A stretch of 50,410 nt of DNA from an uncultured archaeon (GCA_964632315.1 CAZWEM010000035.1:1-50410), one strand, 5' to 3'. Shown: positions 103-21,656, counted from the stretch's first letter. The notes: generated by a model not told the origin, from the sequence alone. Program-made: numbers and translations.

Positions 103-189
103 GGTATTTCATGTAATTGAATAGTAAGAGAGTTCCCAACACCTTCAAAGGGCCATTTGCTTAGCCTGGTTAAAGCGCAGGTCTTATAA

Positions 190-240
190 GTGACCCACAA
201 TCATACAGAACATTAAACTTTATTGATTGTGACAGTAAAA
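190..240 (+). other. tRNA intron 1 (51 nt, non-canonical position 38/39)
   Basis: BHB: central helix TTAT(184-187)/GTAA(235-238), bulges AA|G and AA|A; internal hairpin CACAATCA/TGATTGTG. Confidence 0.8.
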
Positions 241-247
241 ACCTGAG

Positions 248-276
248 AGCCTAACAGATTTCCTTAAGGCATGGAA
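248..276 (+). other. tRNA intron 2 (29 nt, variable loop, 45/46)
   Basis: Bulges AG|A and AA|A flank a GCCT/AGGC helix; central helix CCTG/ATGG is imperfect (relaxed BHB); removal gives AG|ATC variable loop. Confidence 0.65.
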
Positions 277-360
277 ATCCGGGGTTCAAATCCCCGATGG
301 CCCATTTATTTTTTTCTAAAACAATCTAAAAATTATCGAAATAACAAAGAAATTTGCAAG

Positions 361-2537: not shown

Positions 2538-2630
2538 TGGCGGCCCTCGAGGGGAATCGAACCCCTATCCCTCCGCGGGATAACTAGGTTTGAAGCCTAG
2601 CGTCAGAGACCACTCCAACCGTCAAGGGCC
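2538..2630 (-). tRNA. selC: tRNA-Sec(UCA), 9/4 fold, CCA encoded
   Basis: Reverse complement: 9-bp acceptor GGCCCTTGA/TCGAGGGCC, G73+CCA; 7-bp D-stem GTTGGAG-TGGT-CTCTGAC; anticodon arm GCTAGG-CTTCAAA-CCTAGT; long variable arm TATCCC-GCGGA-GGGATA; 4-bp T-stem GGGG-TTCGATT-CCCC. Confidence 0.97.
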
Positions 2631-8062: not shown

Positions 8063-9457
8063 TCACTTAATTTTAGATTTAATATTTCTGAAAATGATCA
8101 ATGGACTAATTAAAATTACTAATCCAAGAACATAAAATCCATACGATGGAATATTATAATGTGGCGTTGTTGGAGTTGATTTTTTGGGAAGTGTAAATCC
8201 AATCAAATTCATTTCTAAAGTGTAATCTCCAACACTAGTATACACCCACTGTAATAGACCAGACATTTTTTCATAAATAAGAGATGTTATTTGTTGGGAC
8301 CCACCGATTTGATTATAGTTAATTTGAACTGTTAGTTCATTTTCTATTATTTCTACTTCTCCTGGATTAGCAGTTGCAAGTGCTTTTTCTTTGATGAAAG
8401 AAAGATTATCTATTAGGGGAATTAAAAAACCAGGTTGCATTGCGCCATAACCAATTGTCATTTGTATAGCAGCTTCTCGATTTGATATATTGTTCAAGTT
8501 TATTTGTGGTCCTATTTGTCCAGAAAATCCCTTATAAAAGATCTCAATGTTTAACCACGCTCTTGGAACATTATTGGGAAATGCATCCGTTGCCCATTCT
8601 GGTTCATAGGGATTCTTTGGATAGAATCCAGTGAAACTCACATTTACAATACCTCCTTCGTTTGTAGTCCAAGTGTCGAAGTAATTATTCCAATCATACC
8701 AAAAGATTGCTGCTTGGTTAAAATTAGTTACATTGTAGGAATAAGTGTTAGTTAAGTCGAGAGAATAGTTAGTTAAAAACATTTCCAAGTTATAACCTAG
8801 AGGATTAGTTATTGGGGCTAATTTGGTACGAGCCCAAATTAACAACCCAGTCTTTTTCTCATAAACCAAGGTTGTGTTTTGAAATTTGGAATTCTGTTTA
8901 AAATCAAACGATATAAAATTAGATGACTCCTCTACGGTAATTTTCCCGGACATAAAACCACTGTCTTGCGCTAAAGCTAATTCCTTTAAATATGTCATAT
9001 TATTGATGGGAATTAGAAGCCCTGATTTAAAGTAATTGTATCCTAAAGCGGTATTAGATGCAATTTCACCATTAGAAACATTATAAAATGTATGGTTCGA
9101 AGTAAGAATTCCACCCACATTCTCTTTAAACTCTATATTCATATAAGGCATAGGACTTTGAAATGCGTTATACATGTCATCTGGATTTTTTTCATAAAAC
9201 CCGGTAAAGTTTACCGTAATTTGGCCACCGATATTAGTTGAAGTATTATATTTTGAGATGTAGTCAAATCCTAACCAATTTAAATCCCCACCAAATTCAG
9301 TTACATTATAAACATAAGTGGAGTTTGTATCAAGATTAAAATAAAAATTGGAGGGAATTGTGATATTAGCCTTTGAAATTGGAATAGAAAAGATAAAAAA
9401 GCCTTGAAACCCAAAAATAAAGAGTAATAGTCCAAGTAACATTGATTTTTTAGTCAT
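8063..9457 (-). CDS. Secreted glycoprotein with two internal repeats and Loki-CTERM-like tail
   Basis: Signal peptide; many N-x-S/T sequons; duplicated YNVT..GG..VxFTGFYxKNP...GxLIP...LxYEKxxGLL; C-terminal IPSY-TM-basic tail. Confidence 0.8.
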   Translation of the reverse strand: MTKKSMLLGLLLFIFGFQGFFIFSIPISKANITIPSNFYFNLDTNSTYVYNVTEFGGDLNWLGFDYISKYNTSTNIGGQITVNFTGFYEKNPDDMYNAFQSPMPYMNIEFKENVGGILTSNHTFYNVSNGEIASNTALGYNYFKSGLLIPINNMTYLKELALAQDSGFMSGKITVEESSNFISFDFKQNSKFQNTTLVYEKKTGLLIWARTKLAPITNPLGYNLEMFLTNYSLDLTNTYSYNVTNFNQAAIFWYDWNNYFDTWTTNEGGIVNVSFTGFYPKNPYEPEWATDAFPNNVPRAWLNIEIFYKGFSGQIGPQINLNNISNREAAIQMTIGYGAMQPGFLIPLIDNLSFIKEKALATANPGEVEIIENELTVQINYNQIGGSQQITSLIYEKMSGLLQWVYTSVGDYTLEMNLIGFTLPKKSTPTTPHYNIPSYGFYVLGLVILISPLIIFRNIKSKIK

Positions 9458-9702: not shown

Positions 9703-10341
9703 TTGAAGTATTCTATATTAACTAGTAATTTAAAGTCTCAAACTGATAACTTGGGTCACGAATCAGAAAATGGGTCAGTTTGGCTAAAAAGGAGATCCTT
9801 TAGGATTGCATTATTAGGTATATTCACAGCTTTAGCTGTCGTATTTGGTTATATGCTAGTAAATCTGCCAAATATAGAACTGTTCACTCTTATGATCTTT
9901 CTTTCAGGGTTTATAATGGGAAAGAAGGATGGGATGTTGGTTGGATTGTTGAGTGCGATAATATTTTGCCTTTTTAATCTGTATGGAGCGTCACCGCTAC
10001 CACTTTTAGCATATCAACTTACACATTATTCACTAACGGGATTAGCTGGAGCCTTAACGAGGAATTATTTGAATAAAAAATCTTATTTCAAACCTAAAAC
10101 AGATTTATATGTTCCCAGGATTCTTATATTGTTTGGTTTAATTGGTGCGATCATTACATTTGTATACGACATTTTAAGTACATTTTTTGGGGGATTAATA
10201 GTTTCTTTTGCATTTGAGTATTTTGTGGCCCAATATCTTATAGGATTAGTATATAGTGTCATTCATTTAATAGGTAATGCTTTAGGATTCATATTTATAT
10301 TACCGGGATTAATTCAATTAATCTTGAAACAGATAGATTAA
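9703..10341 (+). CDS. ECF transporter S component (CbrT-like, probably cobalamin)
   Basis: ~6 TM; PNIELFTLMIFLSG, HLIGN; divergent from the DUF4430 gene cluster; start uncertain. Confidence 0.8.
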   Translation: MKYSILTSNLKSQTDNLGHESENGSVWLKRRSFRIALLGIFTALAVVFGYMLVNLPNIELFTLMIFLSGFIMGKKDGMLVGLLSAIIFCLFNLYGASPLPLLAYQLTHYSLTGLAGALTRNYLNKKSYFKPKTDLYVPRILILFGLIGAIITFVYDILSTFFGGLIVSFAFEYFVAQYLIGLVYSVIHLIGNALGFIFILPGLIQLILKQID

Positions 10342-13143: not shown

Positions 13144-13611
13144 TTAATCTTCATCCATTTCATCAATATCAACGTATTCATCTTCTTCCAATGAAGATTC
13201 TAACAAGCTTTCAAAACTTTCTAATTCTTGTTGAGAAATTCCAAGATTTAAAATTTTAAATCCTTTTCTTTGTGCCACTTCTATGAGCATTATGCGCTTT
13301 TTGGCACCTAATCTACTCGATATCTTTAAAGCATGTTTGTTTTTATTCAAATTATCTAAATCCTTGATCGTGAAAACTCTAATTTCTTCATAGCCCGAAG
13401 GATGAATTCCTCTTATTTTTTTGGGACTTCTATATCCCACAGATGGTGACTTCACTCCTGATTTACTCTTTCTTCTTGTTTTAGAGTCAATACCTCTAGC
13501 TTTTCTCCAAGAACTTTTAACTCGCTTATATCTCCAAGATTCAACTCGTTGAAAACTTGGCCGTTGTTTTTTCATTTTTTTCCTTAATTCAATTAATCTT
13601 TTTTGTTCCAT
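13144..13611 (-). CDS. rpl32e: 50S ribosomal protein eL32
   Basis: WRKARGIDSK, GYRSP..RGIHPSGY; acidic C-terminal tail. Confidence 0.96.
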   Translation of the reverse strand: MEQKRLIELRKKMKKQRPSFQRVESWRYKRVKSSWRKARGIDSKTRRKSKSGVKSPSVGYRSPKKIRGIHPSGYEEIRVFTIKDLDNLNKNKHALKISSRLGAKKRIMLIEVAQRKGFKILNLGISQQELESFESLLESSLEEDEYVDIDEMDED

Positions 13612-13620
13612 TTAATTCAC

Positions 13621-14199
13621 CTATTTGATTTGCCAGAGGATCTCATCTCCAAGCTCTTTCTTATATAAATAAACCCCATCTTGAAAAACTCGGGGATCTT
13701 TCTTTCTAATTCTGCAACTTCTTTTCATATTGGCTGCTGTTTGTCCAAGTGTTTCTTTATCAGGACCCATTAGAATAACATCATCACCAGAGATTTCTAC
13801 TTTAACATTTTCTAAATATTTTGTAACTCTAGGCGCTCTTTCTCCTAAAAAATTAACAAAATGTATTTCATGTTGCTTCGGTTTAATTTCTGCATTGAAC
13901 GGAAAATGACTATAACAAATTTTACAATAATATTTGTAATTATTTTGAACTCCAGTGATAAGATTTTTTACCAGATTATAAGCAGTTTTAGTTAGCGCTA
14001 CAGTTTCACCTTTAGGAAAGTAAGTAGAAAATTTTATGAGGTTCCCCTCAACGATCATTTTAATTCCCCTCATATGGGAAAAATCTTTGGTAATGGTTCC
14101 ATTTGGACCCTTAACAGTAATATGATGATCTCCTGTTACTTTAACCTCGATTCCTTCAGGAATCTCTAAAACCTCTTCTAAAAAGGCTGTTTTTACCAT
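13621..14199 (-). CDS. rpl6: 50S ribosomal protein uL6
   Basis: YSHFP, NFLGE, KDPRVFQDGVY. Confidence 0.97.
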   Translation of the reverse strand: MVKTAFLEEVLEIPEGIEVKVTGDHHITVKGPNGTITKDFSHMRGIKMIVEGNLIKFSTYFPKGETVALTKTAYNLVKNLITGVQNNYKYYCKICYSHFPFNAEIKPKQHEIHFVNFLGERAPRVTKYLENVKVEISGDDVILMGPDKETLGQTAANMKRSCRIRKKDPRVFQDGVYLYKKELGDEILWQIK

Positions 14200-14218
14200 T
14201 TTTTAGCACCTAAATCAA

Positions 14219-14631
14219 TTAATAAATATAACAAAGAGTCATCCCACCTATTTTTTTCTCTTCAGCATCTTTAATTGTCATAATTCCTTGATTGGTTGTA
14301 AGAATTATTAAACCTAAACCAGGAGCTGGTAATAATCTGCGCTCTAATTTTTCAAAGTCCCCTATTCCATAGTTCAATCTCATCAATGCTTTACATTCGT
14401 TTATTTTTCCATTTAAAGCAATCTTAAACTTTCCCGTGCGTCCGTCGTCATATCTTTCAAAATTGCGTCTAATAGAAAGATCTATTAGATTTCGCCTATA
14501 TAAGCGTATTGCTGAAAGATACGAAGAACACGTTGGATTAACTTACTCGCGGGGCTAACTATTACTTCCTTTTTTCTTGCCATTTCCGCATTTTTTAACA
14601 TGTTGCACGCGTCAGCTAGAGTGTTTGTCAT
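14219..14631 (-). CDS. rps8: 30S ribosomal protein uS8, split by a 29-nt intron: join(14631..14491,14461..14219), 127 aa
   Basis: Exon1 MTNTLADACNMLKNAEMARKKEVIVSPASKLIQRVLRIFQQYAYIGE; exon2 FERYDDGRTGKFKIALNGKINECKA...LLPAPGLGLIILTTNQGIMT...KKIGGMTLCYIY*; AGGTG SD; canonical position between uS14 and uL6. Confidence 0.95.
14462..14490 (-). other. Putative BHB (EndA-type) mRNA intron in rps8
   Basis: ATCTAATAGATCTTTCTATTAGACGCAAT; 9-bp hairpin; central helix GGCG/CGCA; bulges AA|A and AT|T; predicted cuts restore GAA|TTT (E-F). Confidence 0.85.
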
Positions 14632-14665
14632 CTATTTTTTCACCTTTATTTTATATTTTATCCTT

Positions 14666-14815
14666 TCATTCATAACGGCGGAAACCAATATCTTTTCCAA
14701 TTTCATAGAAGCATCTCCGGCATATATATAATCCATATCGCCGAATTAATCCACGATGAGTGTGGCATCTTCTACATTCTCTTTGGCCTTTTCCGCTGTT
14801 TTTTCCTTGAGGCAT
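14666..14815 (-). CDS. rps14: 30S ribosomal protein uS14 (Zn-binding, 49 aa), not in ORF track
   Basis: MPQGKNSGKGQRECRRCHTHRGLIRRYGLYICRRCFYEIGKDIGFRRYE*. Confidence 0.96.
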   Translation of the reverse strand: MPQGKNSGKGQRECRRCHTHRGLIRRYGLYICRRCFYEIGKDIGFRRYE

Positions 14816-14843
14816 TTAATCATCCTTTTAAATTTATTTTAAA

Positions 14844-15434
14844 TTAAAAATATTCTAAATCTAATTTATCAACTAATTTTATTCCAAATTTTGTGGTTAA
14901 AAAATATTGTGCTTCATCCTTAGAGACATAATGATGTCTTGGGATCTTAGTTTTTCTTTTTCTTCGATATCTCACTCTCATCCCTGGTCTAACTATTCTT
15001 CCAACCACATCTAAACCCCAAATACCGATTAAATTATCATAATCTATTCCTGGAATTGTGATGTGTTCGAGAACGCCAAATCCAAAATTACCATAATTAT
15101 CAAAACTCTTGCGCAACATTCGATTATTATTCACAATAATTAGCCTTTTTAAAAGTTTTTCTGCTTCAGCTCCTCGAATAGTCACTTTTGTTCCAATTGG
15201 GCGTCCTTTTCTTAAATTAAATTCCTTTACATTCTTTTTTGATATAGTTTTTACTGCTTTACGACCAGAAATAGTCTCTAAAACCACTGATGCTTTTTCT
15301 AGTTCTTCTCCTCCTTCTCCAACTCCAATATTTAGAACTAACTTTTCCAAAAACGGTCTCTTCATTGGATTTTTCCACAATTCTTCATAGTATTCCGAAT
15401 CGAGTTGTTGTTGAGTTTTATTTTTTGTTGACAT
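14844..15434 (-). CDS. rpl5: 50S ribosomal protein uL5
   Basis: NPMK, LNIGVGEGG, GNFGFG..EHI. Confidence 0.97.
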   Translation of the reverse strand: MSTKNKTQQQLDSEYYEELWKNPMKRPFLEKLVLNIGVGEGGEELEKASVVLETISGRKAVKTISKKNVKEFNLRKGRPIGTKVTIRGAEAEKLLKRLIIVNNNRMLRKSFDNYGNFGFGVLEHITIPGIDYDNLIGIWGLDVVGRIVRPGMRVRYRRKRKTKIPRHHYVSKDEAQYFLTTKFGIKLVDKLDLEYF

Positions 15435-15452
15435 TTATATCCACCTTCTTAA

Positions 15453-16202
15453 TTAAATAGAGGGTAATGCTATTTCTGATTGTTCTTCTCCAATTATAAA
15501 GGTATAATCATAAAGAGTTTCCGTAAGTTCTGACTCATGTTGGATTGATACAGTACTAGCTTTTGGACCGAATCTCTTCAAAATATTTTCAATTTTACCT
15601 ACTTGTCCAATATTTTTACCGGACATAATTATAGCAAGATTTCCCTCTTTAAACCTTAATACCTTTAAAATCTCTTGTTCTGGAAGCGAGATCTTCAAAA
15701 CATCCATCCTTTTATAAATATCTTCTTTAGGATTTTTTGGATCTTTTACTTGAATAATAATATTTCTCCCGTCATGCAAATTTAATTGAATGTGACCACC
15801 TTTTATAGTGGTTTTTTGTGTAATTCTGCATAACTTGAATAAACTTTCTTTTTCTGTGATTTCATATAACTTTAACCCATGATGTGAATCAGGTAGAATT
15901 CTATAATGCTTTTTAATCTTCTCAATGCTTATTACATCCATCAATCCAACAGGATATGCTTTATCTTTTACAATTTTTCCATCAATTTTAAAGTAACCTA
16001 GACCTATCAGTTTTTTTGCTTCCCTATAATTATCGACAATCTTTAACAGATCTCTTACAACGTGGAGCAAGGGTAAGCTAAATCGTTTTGGATGAGGCCC
16101 TGGTGAAGGATTTATAAAGAATGTCCCGTGCTTTCGCTTTATTTGCATAAAATCTGGAGTGTTTAACCGCTTTAAAGTCTTATTTCCTCCATGTTTTGTC
16201 AT
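15453..16202 (-). CDS. rps4e: 30S ribosomal protein eS4
   Basis: PSPGPH, YPVGLMDV, QLNLHDGRN. Confidence 0.97.
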   Translation of the reverse strand: MTKHGGNKTLKRLNTPDFMQIKRKHGTFFINPSPGPHPKRFSLPLLHVVRDLLKIVDNYREAKKLIGLGYFKIDGKIVKDKAYPVGLMDVISIEKIKKHYRILPDSHHGLKLYEITEKESLFKLCRITQKTTIKGGHIQLNLHDGRNIIIQVKDPKNPKEDIYKRMDVLKISLPEQEILKVLRFKEGNLAIIMSGKNIGQVGKIENILKRFGPKASTVSIQHESELTETLYDYTFIIGEEQSEIALPSI

Positions 16203-19258: not shown

Positions 19259-19792
19259 TTACTTTAATGGAACGTACTTACTTGATCTAGTGGCACCAAT
19301 ACCAGGAGAACCGTGTTGTACTCTCTTTCGGGTTAAAGCAAATTCTCCTAAATAATGACCAATCATCTCGGGTCTGATTTCTACATTCTCGAAAATTTGA
19401 CCATTATAAATACCGATTTTTAAACCTACCATCTCGGGGAAAATAATCATATCTCTAACATGTGTGCGAGTAAGAAGATCTTTTCCCCTTTTTTTGGCTC
19501 TATATGCTCTTCTTAACCTTTCTAAAAGTTTTTTTTGTCTTGGCGGTAAACCTCTTCTTAAGCTTCGGCGAGCTCTAGCTGGTAATAATTGAATAAATTG
19601 ATCCATATTCATTTTCTTGAGTTCTTCAAGTGTGTATCCACGATAATGAAAGCGAAGTCGATCAAGTTCTTTTTCAGAATCTATATCCTCTTCACTTTCA
19701 ATTTCTTGAATTTCTTCATCGATTTCTTCATCTATATCGTCTTCTTCTAGATCCTCTGATCCCTCATCAATAGGTTCTTCATTCGGAGTCAT
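19259..19792 (-). CDS. rps19: 30S ribosomal protein uS19 with acidic N-terminal extension
   Basis: [31 protein letters not shown]. Confidence 0.97.
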
Positions 19793-19919
19793 AATTCAAT
19801 CAATCTAAGTGTTCCAATTAATTAATTATATATAGTTTTTTCACAATATTTACAACGTGTAAGCTTTTTAGTATTCTATTCAATTTTAATTTTATTAAAA
19901 CGCGTGGAGTCAAAAGCAT

Positions 19920-19934
19920 AAACTTTAAAAGTTT
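19920..19934 (-). promoter_or_regulatory. Probable BRE/TATA promoter of the ribosomal protein operon
   Basis: Minus strand AAACTTTTAAAGTTT about 130 nt upstream of rps19. Confidence 0.35.
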
Positions 19935-20021
19935 GGATTTTGAAATTATTCTGATATTATCTCAAAAATTGAAATTTTATCGACTAATCCGAGCTATATT
20001 TTAGAATCAGATTAAACTGCT

Positions 20022-20702
20022 TTAGTAATAGTGGTTTGGATTAAAAATTCTCGTAATGTCTTTCTCATCAAAATTTCCAGTCCATGTTTCTTTTATAATT
20101 ACATAATCATCTTTTATTTTACTTGGGTTTATCACCGAATGAAAGGACTTCTTAGGGGTGGAAAATTCAGAGCCAATTTCAGTGAAATAATAGACTTTAT
20201 CTACGTTGATAATAATGGGATTTCCAGCAAGAACTTTCCATTTCTCACTACGATTATCGTGGATTTGAATAGAAATTCCTAAACTAGGTTTAATGAAAAT
20301 GATATTATAATCGACATAACTAAATTTTATACTATACCATTTAGCAAGTACGTCAAAATATCCCTTAGGGATGGAAAAATTATTTACAAATGAATTTGGA
20401 TTAAGATTTTTTTTTTTAGATTTTTCGTAAAGATAAGGATTATAAATTACCTTATGATTTGAAATAACATCGTTATAGAATATTTCCAAGGGATCATTTG
20501 AGTTATTTATCATCATGTAATAATCTAATGGTTTAACAATGAGATTATCTTTTTTTAAGCTTGTATAAAAACGATTTTGATTGATCATTAAAACGTTATT
20601 AAATTTATCAGGTTCAATATCCAAACGCAATTTTTTCGTAGAATTTTTTCTTAAACAAGTTCCTCTTTTCGGCTTTAATACTTGCTTATACATTTTAATC
20701 AT
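20022..20702 (-). CDS. Cupin protein, mannose-6-phosphate isomerase type II C-terminal-like
   Basis: SIQIHDNRSEKWKV, HSVIN, FDEKDITR. Confidence 0.7.
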   Translation of the reverse strand: MIKMYKQVLKPKRGTCLRKNSTKKLRLDIEPDKFNNVLMINQNRFYTSLKKDNLIVKPLDYYMMINNSNDPLEIFYNDVISNHKVIYNPYLYEKSKKKNLNPNSFVNNFSIPKGYFDVLAKWYSIKFSYVDYNIIFIKPSLGISIQIHDNRSEKWKVLAGNPIIINVDKVYYFTEIGSEFSTPKKSFHSVINPSKIKDDYVIIKETWTGNFDEKDITRIFNPNHYY

Positions 20703-21656
20703 TTAAAAAATGGCTTTATATTTTTCTTCAATCTCATTTAAATCTGGCATTGAGTCTTGGGCACCCTTTCTAGTTACGGCAATTGAAGCTCCAACTACTG
20801 CATATTTTACTGCGTTAATCAATTTTTCCCCCTTACTCAAGAAACTCGCCAATATTCCATTAAAAGAATCGCCTGCTCCAACTGTATCAACTGCGTTGAC
20901 TTTTGGAGCATCAATTTGAATTATTTCATCTGTTTCTGATTGATATATTTTGCAACCTTTAGATCCTAGAGTGGTAATGACAATCTTAGGACCCAAACTC
21001 ACTAAATTTTTAGATGCAATCAGAATATTTTTCTCTTCTTCTTCAAAATCTCCTAAATTATATAATCTATTCAGTTGAAATAATTCCCCTTGATTTGGAA
21101 TGATTATATCGATCAAATTTAGGATATTTAAAGGTATTTTTTTAAGAGGAGCAGGATTTAAGATCTTTAAAGGTTTACCTTCAGAAGCAATTTTAAAAAT
21201 CTGTGAGATAGTTTCTGTGGGAATTTCCATTTGAACGAGAATAATAGTGGCATTTTTTATAAGATCAGATATTTGATTTAATTCTTCAGGCTTCAATAAA
21301 GCATTCGCTCCAGGAGCGACACTTATCATATTCTCTCCATTTTCATCCACCATAATGAATGCAATCCCACTAGGATTTTCATCAGCTCTTATTATATTTT
21401 CAATATAAATACCTTCCTTTAATAATTTTGAAACCATACGATCCCCAAAATCATCTTTTCCAATTTTAGCAATAAAATAAGTTTTTGAGCCCGCACGGGT
21501 AGATGCTAACGCTTGGTTTGCTCCTTTTCCACCAAGATGTTGTTCAAAAGTGCCACCTGTGACAGTCTCACCAGATCTGGGAAGCTTTTCAGAATAAATA
21601 ACAAGATCCATATTGCTTGATCCAATTACTACCACGTACCTCTCATCATTCATCAA
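20703..21656 (-). CDS. rbsK: Ribokinase (PfkB family)
   Basis: GSSNMD, GGKGANQA, LNPAP, DTVGAGDSF. Confidence 0.94.
   Translation of the reverse strand: MMNDERYVVVIGSSNMDLVIYSEKLPRSGETVTGGTFEQHLGGKGANQALASTRAGSKTYFIAKIGKDDFGDRMVSKLLKEGIYIENIIRADENPSGIAFIMVDENGENMISVAPGANALLKPEELNQISDLIKNATIILVQMEIPTETISQIFKIASEGKPLKILNPAPLKKIPLNILNLIDIIIPNQGELFQLNRLYNLGDFEEEEKNILIASKNLVSLGPKIVITTLGSKGCKIYQSETDEIIQIDAPKVNAVDTVGAGDSFNGILASFLSKGEKLINAVKYAVVGASIAVTRKGAQDSMPDLNEIEEKYKAIF

What the first reader, a model, noticed from the sequence alone, without database searches (positions are those of the whole stretch)
14462..14496. uS8 intron as a possible splicing-based autoregulatory switch or operon processing site
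SEEN: the unspliced message meets TAA TAG one codon into the intron (48-aa dead product), mid-way through a 19-gene co-oriented cluster. KNOWN: uS8 binds irregular RNA helices (16S h21), represses the spc operon in E. coli, and yeast uS8 (RPS22B) is autoregulated through an intron. INFERENCE: free uS8 could bind this helix and block EndA. Cleavage without ligation would also separate the uS19-uS14 part from the uL6-uL15 part, tying ribosome synthesis to tRNA-splicing capacity.
Basis: inference. Interest (0 to 1): 0.7.

Follow-up and report, generated by a model that had tools for sequence, protein, structure and literature searches.

The report
tRNA-type mini-intron in Asgard uS8 gene
The only ribosomal protein uS8 gene of this Loki-type (Asgard) archaeon is broken by a 29-base hairpin insert shaped like a tRNA intron, so its message almost certainly has to be spliced. 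Nothing supports the idea that the insert is a special uS8-controlled switch.

Summary
uS8 lies on the minus strand. Exon 1 is 14631-14491, a 29-nt insert is 14490-14462 (AUC, then UAA UAG), and exon 2 is 14461-14219. Removing exactly those 29 nt restores AYIGEFERYDDGR, the sequence found in all 36 uninterrupted genes of the genus.

With its exon flanks the insert forms a near-canonical bulge-helix-bulge (BHB) motif. The genome has a two-subunit EndA with the broad-specificity loop, and RtcB.

Ten of 151 genomes of the order carry such an insert. They use two sites 9 nt apart, with unrelated hairpin sequences but one shared architecture. Splitting is therefore real and selected, but sporadic.

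I confirmed the same kind of insert in TBP and a FwdB-like gene of this genome, and in uS3 of a congener. Earlier notes of this scan report it in many other Asgard genes, so the scan found this before on other DNA.

No RNA data were available, so splicing is inferred.

The autoregulation idea is unsupported. The element has no helix-21-like uS8 site, its hairpin sequence is not conserved, and 93% of relatives lack it.

One added point: carriers are polyphyletic yet share the ~33-nt upstream exon flank, which suggests exchange by recombination.

The parts
14491..14631 (-). uS8 exon 1 (47 codons, ATG 14631-14629 to GAA 14493-14491)
   Evidence: junction fixed by comparison with 36 intronless congeners
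14462..14490 (-). 29-nt BHB-type mini-intron (AUC UAA UAG ...), architecture 1 + 9 + 4 + 9 + 4 + 2
14219..14461 (-). uS8 exon 2 (80 codons plus stop), in the -1 frame relative to exon 1
14482..14487 (-). in-frame TAA TAG that end the unspliced reading frame after 48 aa
14493..14496 (-). H5: exon strand (GGCG) of the central BHB helix; pairs with 14464-14467 (3 Watson-Crick pairs plus an outer G.A)
14490..14492 (-). 5' bulge AA|A; predicted cut between 14491 and 14490
   Evidence: geometry; the cut position restores the consensus codons
14468..14489 (-). inner helix h': 9-bp hairpin UCUAAUAGA / UCUAUUAGA with loop UCUU
   Evidence: two compensatory pairs among type-A carriers
14464..14467 (-). 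H3: intron strand (CGCA) of the central helix
14461..14463 (-). 3' bulge AU|U; predicted cut between 14462 and 14461
14449..14460 (-). h3: exon-2 strand of the 12-bp outer helix, starting at exon-2 base +2
14512..14523 (-). h5: exon-1 strand of the outer helix (CGUAUCUUUCAG), separated from H5 by a 15-nt loop (14497-14511)
   Evidence: 12/12 pairs in type-A carriers vs mean 9.2/12 in intronless congeners
14502..14506 (-). exon-only partner (CGCUU) that can pair with 14493-14497 instead of the intron; this conformer is 0.9 kcal/mol more stable than the BHB conformer

Best explanation
The 29 nt at 14490-14462 are an archaeal bulge-helix-bulge (tRNA-type) mini-intron inside the uS8 coding sequence of a Promethearchaeota (Lokiarchaeial, Asgard) genome.

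Proposed mechanism:
1. In the pre-mRNA, exon bases GGCG pair with intron bases CGCA to form the central helix.
2. A 9-bp intron hairpin forms the inner helix.
3. A 12-bp exon1-exon2 helix closes the outside.
4. Two 3-nt bulges, AA|A and AU|U, are left on opposite strands.
5. [quoted passage not shown]
6. RtcB joins GAA to UUU, restoring ...YIGE-FERYDDG...

Unspliced RNA gives only a 48-aa fragment, so splicing is obligatory for uS8 synthesis.

The intron is one member of a population of 28-33-nt mini-introns in protein genes of these archaea. It is sporadic among relatives and appears to be exchanged or lost by homologous recombination. It is most simply a tolerated, near-neutral element rather than a dedicated regulator.

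Shown: sequence anatomy, comparative pattern, presence of the enzymes. Inferred: the cleavage and ligation itself, and the recombinational spread.
For: Junction:
- Removing 14490-14462 restores GGN GAA TTT GAA, as in all 36 intronless genes of the genus.

Carriers:
- Four further genomes have an intron at the same site (G004, G016, G057: 29 nt; G081: 32 nt).
- Five genomes in five genera have one 9 nt upstream at TAY|ATT: G003, G070, G084, G067, G150.
- Seven of 77 environmental contigs are also split.

Architecture:
- Nine of the ten carriers fit the register 4-nt exon H5, 3-nt bulge, 9-position stem, 4-5-nt loop, stem, 4-nt H3, 3-nt bulge. The tenth, G081 (32 nt), keeps H (4 Watson-Crick pairs) and both bulges, but its stem has an internal loop.
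- 109 of 117 predicted pairs are standard.
- Type-B stems pair 96% with their own partner strand vs 55% with another carrier's.
- Type-A alignment: 95% of cells paired vs 32-49% when partners are slid; 2 compensatory pairs.
- The BHB conformer lies within 0.9 kcal/mol of the minimum free energy for type A, and is the minimum-energy fold for G003.

Enzymes:
- Two EndA paralogues are present.
- One aligns end to end with the Aeropyrum pernix catalytic subunit 3P1Z_B, including the K44 loop lysine and the Y/H/K triad. The other lacks the His.
- RtcB is present.
- The (alpha-beta)2 type with the L1 loop cleaves relaxed motifs and is reported for Asgard (PMC5829648; 10.64898/2026.10.13.758758).

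Function retained:
- Single-copy gene; synonymous changes dominate.

Generic nature:
- Same architecture in TBP, where removal restores QNIVASGDL.
- A 30-nt insert in a FwdB-like gene.
- Two inserts in uS3 of congener G015.
Against: - No RNA evidence. The single run found does not cover uS8, and no contig matches the predicted spliced junction.
- In G000 the central helix has only 3 Watson-Crick pairs plus a G.A.
- The outer helix is displaced by a 15-nt loop opposite the 3' bulge, so the motif is relaxed rather than textbook.
- The minimum-energy fold prefers an exon-only hairpin over the central helix by 0.9 kcal/mol.
- uS8 is a more frequent host (10 of 132 genomes in the family) than the equally sized uL14 (0 of 129). 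This could hint at something gene-specific.
- My structure-plus-ORF census of the genome showed no enrichment over decoys. I therefore cannot give my own count of such introns in this genome.
Confidence: 0.78

Rival explanations
1. The intron is an autoregulatory device: free uS8 binds the intron helix, blocks EndA, and so lowers its own synthesis. Alternatively, cleavage without ligation splits the operon transcript.
For: - Splicing is obligatory for uS8 synthesis, so any change in splicing efficiency would change uS8 output.
- uS8 is an RNA-binding repressor in E. coli, and it can bind RNAs that lack the native motif (PMC4176348).
- Two introns 9 nt apart recur in uS8 in six genera, while uL14 has none.
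- An exon-only hairpin competes with the central helix at nearly equal energy.
- A negative-regulator role was once proposed for the cbf5 intron (PMC2738675).
Against: - 141 of 151 relatives do without the intron.
- Hairpin sequences are unrelated between carriers.
- There is no helix-21-like internal loop or AAGU/AUAC core in or around the element, although the genus 16S keeps it.
- The AAUAC seen upstream in G000 is AACAC in the other three 29-nt type-A carriers.
- Rfam gives no r-protein leader match.
- The same intron type sits in non-ribosomal genes and in uS3.
- In G004 the uS8 gene is already physically separated from uS14 and the genes upstream, so operon-splitting is not needed there.
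Confidence: 0.06
2. The insert stays in the mRNA and the ribosome deals with it, by translational bypassing (hopping, as in T4 gene 60 or yeast mitochondrial byps), by -1 frameshifting, or by stop read-through.
For: - Stop codons directly follow the last sense codon, and a hairpin starts there. This resembles gene 60.
- In G003 an ATT codon flanks both sides of the insert.
Against: - Matched take-off and landing codons are absent in G000, G004, G016, G057 and most type-B carriers.
- G003 has stops in both relevant frames, so no frameshift window exists.
- The 30-nt in-frame inserts carry 1-3 stops and would add 10 residues inside a conserved strand.
- There is no slippery heptamer upstream of the hairpin.
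- What is conserved across carriers is the EndA register, including exon-intron pairing H5/H3 that covaries: GCCU/AGGU, GCUU/AAGU, GGCG/CGCC. Ribosomal bypass has no use for that pairing.
Confidence: 0.04
3. The insert is removed at the RNA level, but not by EndA/RtcB. Some other nuclease-ligase pair or a self-cleaving activity does it.
For: - No cleavage assay exists for any Asgard EndA (stated in 10.64898/2026.10.13.758758).
- The motif in G000 is relaxed.
Against: - The predicted cuts fall after the second base of each 3-nt bulge in all ten carriers. That is the EndA rule.
- 29 nt is too short for known ribozymes, and there is no Rfam match.
- The required enzymes are encoded.
Confidence: 0.07
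4. The gene is a pseudogene, or the insert is an assembly or sequencing artefact.
For: Taken at face value the reading frame is broken.
Against: - uS8 is essential and single-copy here.
- The same insert occurs in independent assemblies and in environmental contigs.
- The exons show purifying selection.
- Insert lengths (29, 30, 32 nt) always restore the frame exactly.
Confidence: 0.01

Closest known systems
BHB intron in the cbf5 (pseudouridine synthase) pre-mRNA of Crenarchaeota (Desulfurococcales, Sulfolobales; PMC2738675 and papers cited there)
   Same: - A short intron inside a protein-coding sequence.
- An often relaxed bulge-helix-bulge motif built partly from exon sequence.
- A host with heteromeric broad-specificity EndA.
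- Patchy distribution with secondary losses.
   Different: - Host is an Asgard (Promethearchaeota) archaeon and the gene is a ribosomal protein in the spc-like cluster.
- Very uniform 29-32-nt architecture.
- Two insertion sites 9 nt apart.
- Carriers are polyphyletic and share an exon flank.
- It is one of many such introns in these genomes rather than a single case.
- Splicing is not yet shown by RNA data, whereas cbf5 splicing was shown experimentally.
Non-canonical tRNA introns of Asgard archaea and Thermoproteales (10.64898/2026.10.13.758758; PMC11291895; PMC5829648)
   Same: - The same predicted enzymes, (alpha-beta)2 EndA with L1 loop and RtcB.
- The same BHB/relaxed-BHB logic.
- Repeated gains.
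- Dependence on exon sequence that allows the motif to form.
   Different: The substrate is an mRNA. The exon half of the motif is made of codons (Gly GGC + G of GAA, or Ala GCC/GCU + U of UAY). Failure to splice gives a truncated protein rather than a dead tRNA.
uS8 autogenous repression of the spc operon in E. coli (PMC4176348, PMC3616713) and intron-mediated control of yeast RPS22B
   Same: The gene product is an RNA-binding protein, and its synthesis could in principle be gated by an RNA structure in its own message.
   Different: No helix-21 mimic (asymmetric 7-nt internal loop, base triples, A642 equivalent) is present. The element is not conserved among relatives. The E. coli site lies at the rplE start, not inside rpsH.
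Translational bypass elements (T4 gene 60; mitochondrial byps) - from my own knowledge, not checked in papers here
   Same: A short insert in a coding sequence, beginning with stop codons and a hairpin.
   Different: No matched take-off and landing codons. Conserved exon-intron pairing in the EndA register.

Membership tests
Archaeal BHB intron (EndA/RtcB-spliced) | [quoted passage not shown] | tested here: met
   G000: AA|A and AU|U separated by GGCG/CGCA (3 Watson-Crick pairs + G.A). Full 4 bp in G081, G003, G084, G070 and G150. This is the relaxed form in G000.
Archaeal BHB intron (EndA/RtcB-spliced) | Cuts after the 2nd base of each bulge give a functional joined product | tested here: met
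   The rule restores the consensus Y-I/V/L-G-E-F-E in 10 of 10 carriers.
Archaeal BHB intron (EndA/RtcB-spliced) | Flanking helices h' (intron) and h (exon) | tested here: met
   h' has 9 positions starting at intron base 2 in nine of the ten carriers. In G081 the 32-nt intron has an interrupted stem. h is 12 bp starting at exon-2 base +2, but is displaced by a 15-nt loop on the other strand.
Archaeal BHB intron (EndA/RtcB-spliced) | Host encodes a splicing endonuclease able to cut relaxed motifs, and an RNA ligase | tested here: met
   Two EndA paralogues. The alpha subunit has the L1-loop Lys and the Y/H/K triad, aligned to 3P1Z_B. RtcB E = 1e-170.
Archaeal BHB intron (EndA/RtcB-spliced) | Intron absent from the mature RNA | not testable with these tools
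   No RNA run holds the locus. No spliced-form contig was found among 157 loci. The exact-junction scan of metagenomes could not be run.
uS8 autoregulatory RNA (spc-type operator) | Mimic of the helix-21 site: helix interrupted by a conserved 7-nt internal loop with base triples and an A642 equivalent (PMC4176348) | tested here: not met
   The intron stem is fully Watson-Crick. The only irregularities are the EndA bulges. The genus helix 21 reads GUAAGUUCC/GGAAUACUG and has no counterpart in any carrier.
uS8 autoregulatory RNA (spc-type operator) | Conservation of the operator among relatives that share the operon | tested here: not met
   Present in 10 of 151 genomes. Stem sequences are unrelated between carriers.
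uS8 autoregulatory RNA (spc-type operator) | uS8 binds the RNA and lowers expression | not testable with these tools
   Needs EMSA and a cleavage assay.
Programmed translational bypass / -1 frameshift | Matched take-off and landing codons, or a slippery heptamer with an overlapping open window | tested here: not met

The most novel reading that the evidence does not exclude
BHB mini-introns of Lokiarchaeial protein genes behave as a horizontally exchanged population. On this reading the uS8 intron moved between species of the genus together with about 33 nt of upstream exon. That stretch is exactly the part that supplies the outer-helix strand, the central-helix strand and the 5' bulge. The uS8 Tyr44-Phe48 codons would then be a recurrent landing or retention site, because the coding sequence can build the exon half of the splicing motif. 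This would be a homing-like spread of tRNA-type introns in mRNAs of the closest prokaryotic relatives of eukaryotes.
Probability: 0.35. Interest if true: 0.8.

Novelty: new member of a known kind. Interest (0 to 1): 0.6.

Why it matters
In the papers I could search, endonuclease-type splicing inside an archaeal coding sequence is documented only for cbf5. Here an essential ribosomal protein of an Asgard archaeon depends on it, and the same kind of element sits in other core genes.

If RNA data confirm this, routine mRNA splicing by the tRNA-splicing machinery exists in the lineage closest to eukaryotes. That ties ribosome production to EndA/RtcB activity.

There is also a practical consequence. 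Gene callers split or truncate such genes, so uS8 is annotated as two fragments or as missing. That distorts marker-gene sets and completeness estimates.

At present it is speculation.

Tried and rejected
- RNA evidence. The look-up of sequencing runs listed one run of unknown kind and no RNA holder. Laid on 13600-15500 it covered only 14689-14739, so it gives no information on splicing.
- Exact-pattern scan of metagenome contigs for the spliced or unspliced junction. The step was left out.
- Spliced-form contigs. Among 157 related loci, none is closer than 109/120 to the predicted spliced junction of any carrier.
- Genome-wide census of mini-introns by BHB architecture plus an ORF-joining test. 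There was no enrichment over frame-shifted decoys. The hits I inspected were mostly gene junctions, such as RFC paralogues and TPP enzyme plus SDR. Only uS8, TBP and the FwdB-like gene stood out.
- Sequence family. The intron sequence is unique in the genome, so it is not a repeat family by sequence.
- Rfam on 14380-14600 at E <= 10 gave only chance hits.
- My first reading of the BHB geometry was mirrored, and it led me to think no BHB existed. I corrected it against the tRNA 37/38 case and the figure legend in 10.64898/2026.10.13.758758.
- 16S rRNA is absent from G000. Helix 21 was taken from congeners instead.
- 'The GGC Gly codon is exclusive to carriers.' This is true within the genus (0 of 35 intronless) but not in wider sampling (9 intronless loci have GGCG).
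- MAFFT alignment of type A with type B introduced gaps. Pair counts across both types were therefore done in register by script.

Full report
**What is there**

The finding lies in the uS8 gene, which runs on the minus strand.
- Reading from ATG 14631, the frame gives 47 residues of uS8 (MTNTLADACN...QQYAYIGE), one Ile codon, then TAA TAG. The ORF listing gives a 48-aa ORF at 14485..14631.
- The remaining 80 residues (FERYDDGRTGKF...MTLCYIY*) follow in the -1 frame from 14461 to 14219.
- The two pieces match Pfam Ribosomal_S8 positions 2-44 and 92-126.
- A whole-genome search finds no other uS8 copy.
- The surrounding 19 co-oriented genes (uS19, uL22, uS3, uL29, Rpp29, uS17, uL14, uL24, eS4, uL5, uS14, uS8, uL6, eL32, eL19, uL18, uS5, uL30, uL15) were confirmed with Pfam.

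The range 14462-14496 is the intron (14462-14490) plus six exon bases that belong to the splicing motif.

**Exact boundaries**

All 36 uninterrupted uS8 genes of the same genus read ...GCN TAY RTN GGN GAR TTY GAR MGN TAY GAY GAY GG. In the window, GGC GAA is followed by 29 extra bases and then TTT GAA AGA TAT GAC. Only the deletion of 14490-14462 restores the consensus. Shifting by one base either way gives GD-F or GE-I.

**Organism and enzymes**

- Related contigs are titled Promethearchaeota (Lokiarchaeial Asgard) MAGs.
- The assembly is 4.45 Mb with 33% G+C.
- It encodes two EndA paralogues of 207 and 205 aa that are 31% identical.
- The first aligns over its whole length with the catalytic subunit of the Aeropyrum pernix heterotetramer (3P1Z_B, E = 8e-34). 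It keeps the loop lysine equivalent to K44 (GINKPR) and the Tyr/His/Lys triad. The second lacks the His.
- This is the (alpha-beta)2 type with the L1 loop. That type cleaves relaxed motifs and was reported for Asgard archaea (PMC5829648; 10.64898/2026.10.13.758758).
- RtcB is present.

**Structure**

The canonical register is: outer helix h, 4-nt exon strand H5, bulge [e-2 e-1 | i1], inner helix h' from i2, then H3 = i(n-5..n-2), bulge [i(n-1) i(n) | e+1], and h from e+2. I first had this register mirrored and corrected it.

The window fits as follows:

| Element | Sequence | Coordinates |
|---|---|---|
| H5 | GGCG | 14496-14493 |
| 5' bulge | AA\|A | 14492-14490 |
| h' | UCUAAUAGA / UCUAUUAGA, loop UCUU | 14489-14468 |
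| H3 | CGCA | 14467-14464 |
| 3' bulge | AU\|U | 14463-14461 |
| h (3' strand) | UUGAAAGAUAUG | 14460-14449 |
| h (5' strand) | CGUAUCUUUCAG | 14523-14512 |

- The central helix has three Watson-Crick pairs plus an outer G.A.
- A 15-nt loop lies opposite the 3' bulge.
- The minimum-energy fold uses an exon-only hairpin (14506-14502 with 14497-14493) instead of the central helix. The BHB conformer is only 0.9 kcal/mol higher.
- An 81-nt window folds with z = -3.7 against shuffles.

**Comparative evidence**

Distribution:

| Group | Genomes with split uS8 |
|---|---|
| Genus | 5 of 41 |
| Family f1 | 10 of 132 |
| Order | 10 of 151 |
| Other three families of the order | 0 of 19 |

There are two sites.
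- Type A lies between Glu47 and Phe48. Carriers are G000, G004, G016, G057 (29 nt) and G081 (32 nt, with a perfect GGCG/CGCC central helix).
- Type B lies 9 nt upstream, between Tyr44 and Ile/Val/Leu45. Carriers are G003, G084 (29 nt), G070, G067 and G150 (30 nt). These five sit in five different genera.

The five type-B stems have unrelated sequences. Nine of the ten carriers obey 1 + 9 + (4 or 5) + 9 + 4 + 2. In the tenth, G081, the stem carries an internal loop.
- In a register-based count, 109 of 117 predicted pairs are standard. Most stem positions show 2-4 pair types.
- Type-B stems pair 96% with their own partner strand but 55% with another carrier's.
- The exon-intron helix covaries too: GCCU/AGGU, GCCU/GGGU, GCUU/AAGU, GGCG/CGCC.
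- Within type A, two stem pairs change on both sides, and 95% of cells pair against 32-49% in slid controls. With only four sequences the shuffle control is weak, 59/500.
- Seven of 77 environmental contigs carry the same introns.
- The exons evolve under purifying selection.

**Alternatives**

- Frameshifting is excluded. G003 has stops in both frames, and the 30-nt inserts are in frame but carry 1-3 stops.
- Bypassing lacks matched codons in most carriers. It also has no use for the conserved exon-intron pairing.
- A pseudogene or an artefact is excluded by recurrence, single copy and selection.

**Is it special to uS8?**

I verified three other cases myself.
- The TBP gene of this genome (C18:19083-19112, 30 nt). 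Removal restores QNIVASGDL, with the same 1+9+5+9+4+2 layout and a 3-bp plus A.G central helix.
- A FwdB-like molybdopterin oxidoreductase (C24:24131-24160, 30 nt, joining CPFCG to LCDD).
- uS3 of congener G015, with two inserts of 31 and 30 nt.

A tblastn census of the 19 cluster genes in 40 congeners found interruptions only in uS8 (4, plus G000) and uS3 (1 genome). uL14 is intact in 129 of 129 family genomes.

So uS8 is a comparatively frequent host. The number of independent origins is small: type A, type B, and possibly a few more type B.

Earlier notes of this scan report similar 28-49-nt introns in many genes of this genome and of other Asgard genomes, several of them ribosomal. I treat those notes as leads. 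My own checks agree with them.

**Evolution**

- A maximum-likelihood tree of the uS8 coding sequence, leaving out the 51 nt upstream of the intron, places G004 inside a clade of 18 intronless genes, sister to G008 (99/96).
- It places G000, G016 and G057 in a six-member clade with three intronless genes.
- Holding the four type-A carriers together costs 148 log-likelihood units (AU p = 3e-14).
- Yet in the 30 nt just upstream of the intron, G004 matches G016, G057 and G000 at 29/30 and its sister G008 at only 24/30. Everywhere else G004:G008 is 27-30/30 and G004:G016 is about 20/30.
- G016 likewise differs from its intronless sister G006 mainly in the 60 nt upstream (16/30 and 25/30).
- The shared tract coincides with the exon half of the motif.
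- In carriers the outer helix is 12/12 paired. In 35 intronless congeners the mean is 9.2/12, and none of them uses GGC for the Gly codon. Nine intronless loci in the wider sampling do use it.

The simplest reading is exchange of intron-plus and intron-minus alleles by homologous recombination with short conversion tracts. Convergent selection on the flank cannot be excluded.

The EndA-type intron is supported. The regulatory switch is not.
- uS8 sites are helices interrupted by a conserved asymmetric seven-nucleotide loop with base triples and an invariant A642 (PMC4176348).
- The genus 16S keeps this loop (GUAAGUUCC...GGAAUACUG).
- The intron stem is regular. Its only irregularities are the EndA bulges. 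Its sequence differs completely between carriers.
- An AAUAC upstream in G000 is not conserved in the other carriers.
- Rfam finds no leader-like element.
- Most relatives (141 of 151) lack the intron.
- In G004 the uS8-uL15 part is already detached from uS14 and the genes upstream at the DNA level.

Since uS8 can bind non-native RNAs (PMC4176348), binding cannot be excluded without an assay. I give the model about 6%.

**Limits**

Splicing itself is inferred. No RNA data cover the locus.

**Verdict**

This is a real, obligatorily removed, tRNA-type mini-intron in an essential ribosomal protein gene of an Asgard archaeon. It is a new member of the kind so far printed only for cbf5, and most likely a tolerated and occasionally exchanged element rather than a uS8-operated switch.

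Noticed in passing
window 150-304 (+): Rfam tRNA match (43.7 bits) spans 155 nt for a 71-position model, and ARAGORN does not call it. It is probably a tRNA gene with one or more long or non-canonical introns.
   Followed up: no
window 2538-2630 (-): tRNA-Sec (Rfam 61.3 bits; ARAGORN anticodon TCA). The organism uses selenocysteine.
   Followed up: no
G000 C18:19083-19112 (+) (locus L055/L056): The TBP gene carries a 30-nt mini-intron with an in-frame TAA between the two repeats. Removal restores QNIVASGDL. It has the same 1+9+5+9+4+2 BHB layout as the uS8 intron.
   Followed up: partly
G000 C24:24131-24160 (-) (locus L063): A 30-nt hairpin insert separates a 37-aa exon ending ...CCPFCG from a 421-aa molybdopterin-oxidoreductase exon starting LCDDLEID. 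This looks like a FwdB-type gene with a mini-intron.
   Followed up: partly
L254 (G015) about 10002-10032 and 9912-9941 (-): uS3 of a congener has two mini-inserts: 31 nt after residue 57 and 30 nt (in frame, with a stop) near residue 77. G000 lacks both.
   Followed up: partly
L280 (G004), upstream of uS8 (locus >6051); uL14 on another contig (G004:C90): In G004 the ribosomal cluster is broken immediately upstream of the uS8 start. No uS14 or uL5 is found in the 5.5 kb upstream, and the sequence there does not align with congeners.
   Followed up: partly
L158 (G123:C7:199733-199873): A second, truncated uS8 copy encodes only MTNT...AYIGEFE, then diverges and stops. It lies 15 kb upstream of the intact gene, and it ends right at the intron-site region.
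   Followed up: no
window 8063-9457 (-): The 464-aa ORF directly downstream of uL15, where archaea usually have secY, has no Pfam match even at E <= 1. An ECF-transporter S-component-like ORF lies on the other strand at 9703-10341.
   Followed up: partly
window 19792-21656 (-): Upstream of uS19 the cluster is preceded by a mannose-6-phosphate isomerase-like gene and a PfkB kinase gene instead of uL3-uL4-uL23-uL2.
   Followed up: no
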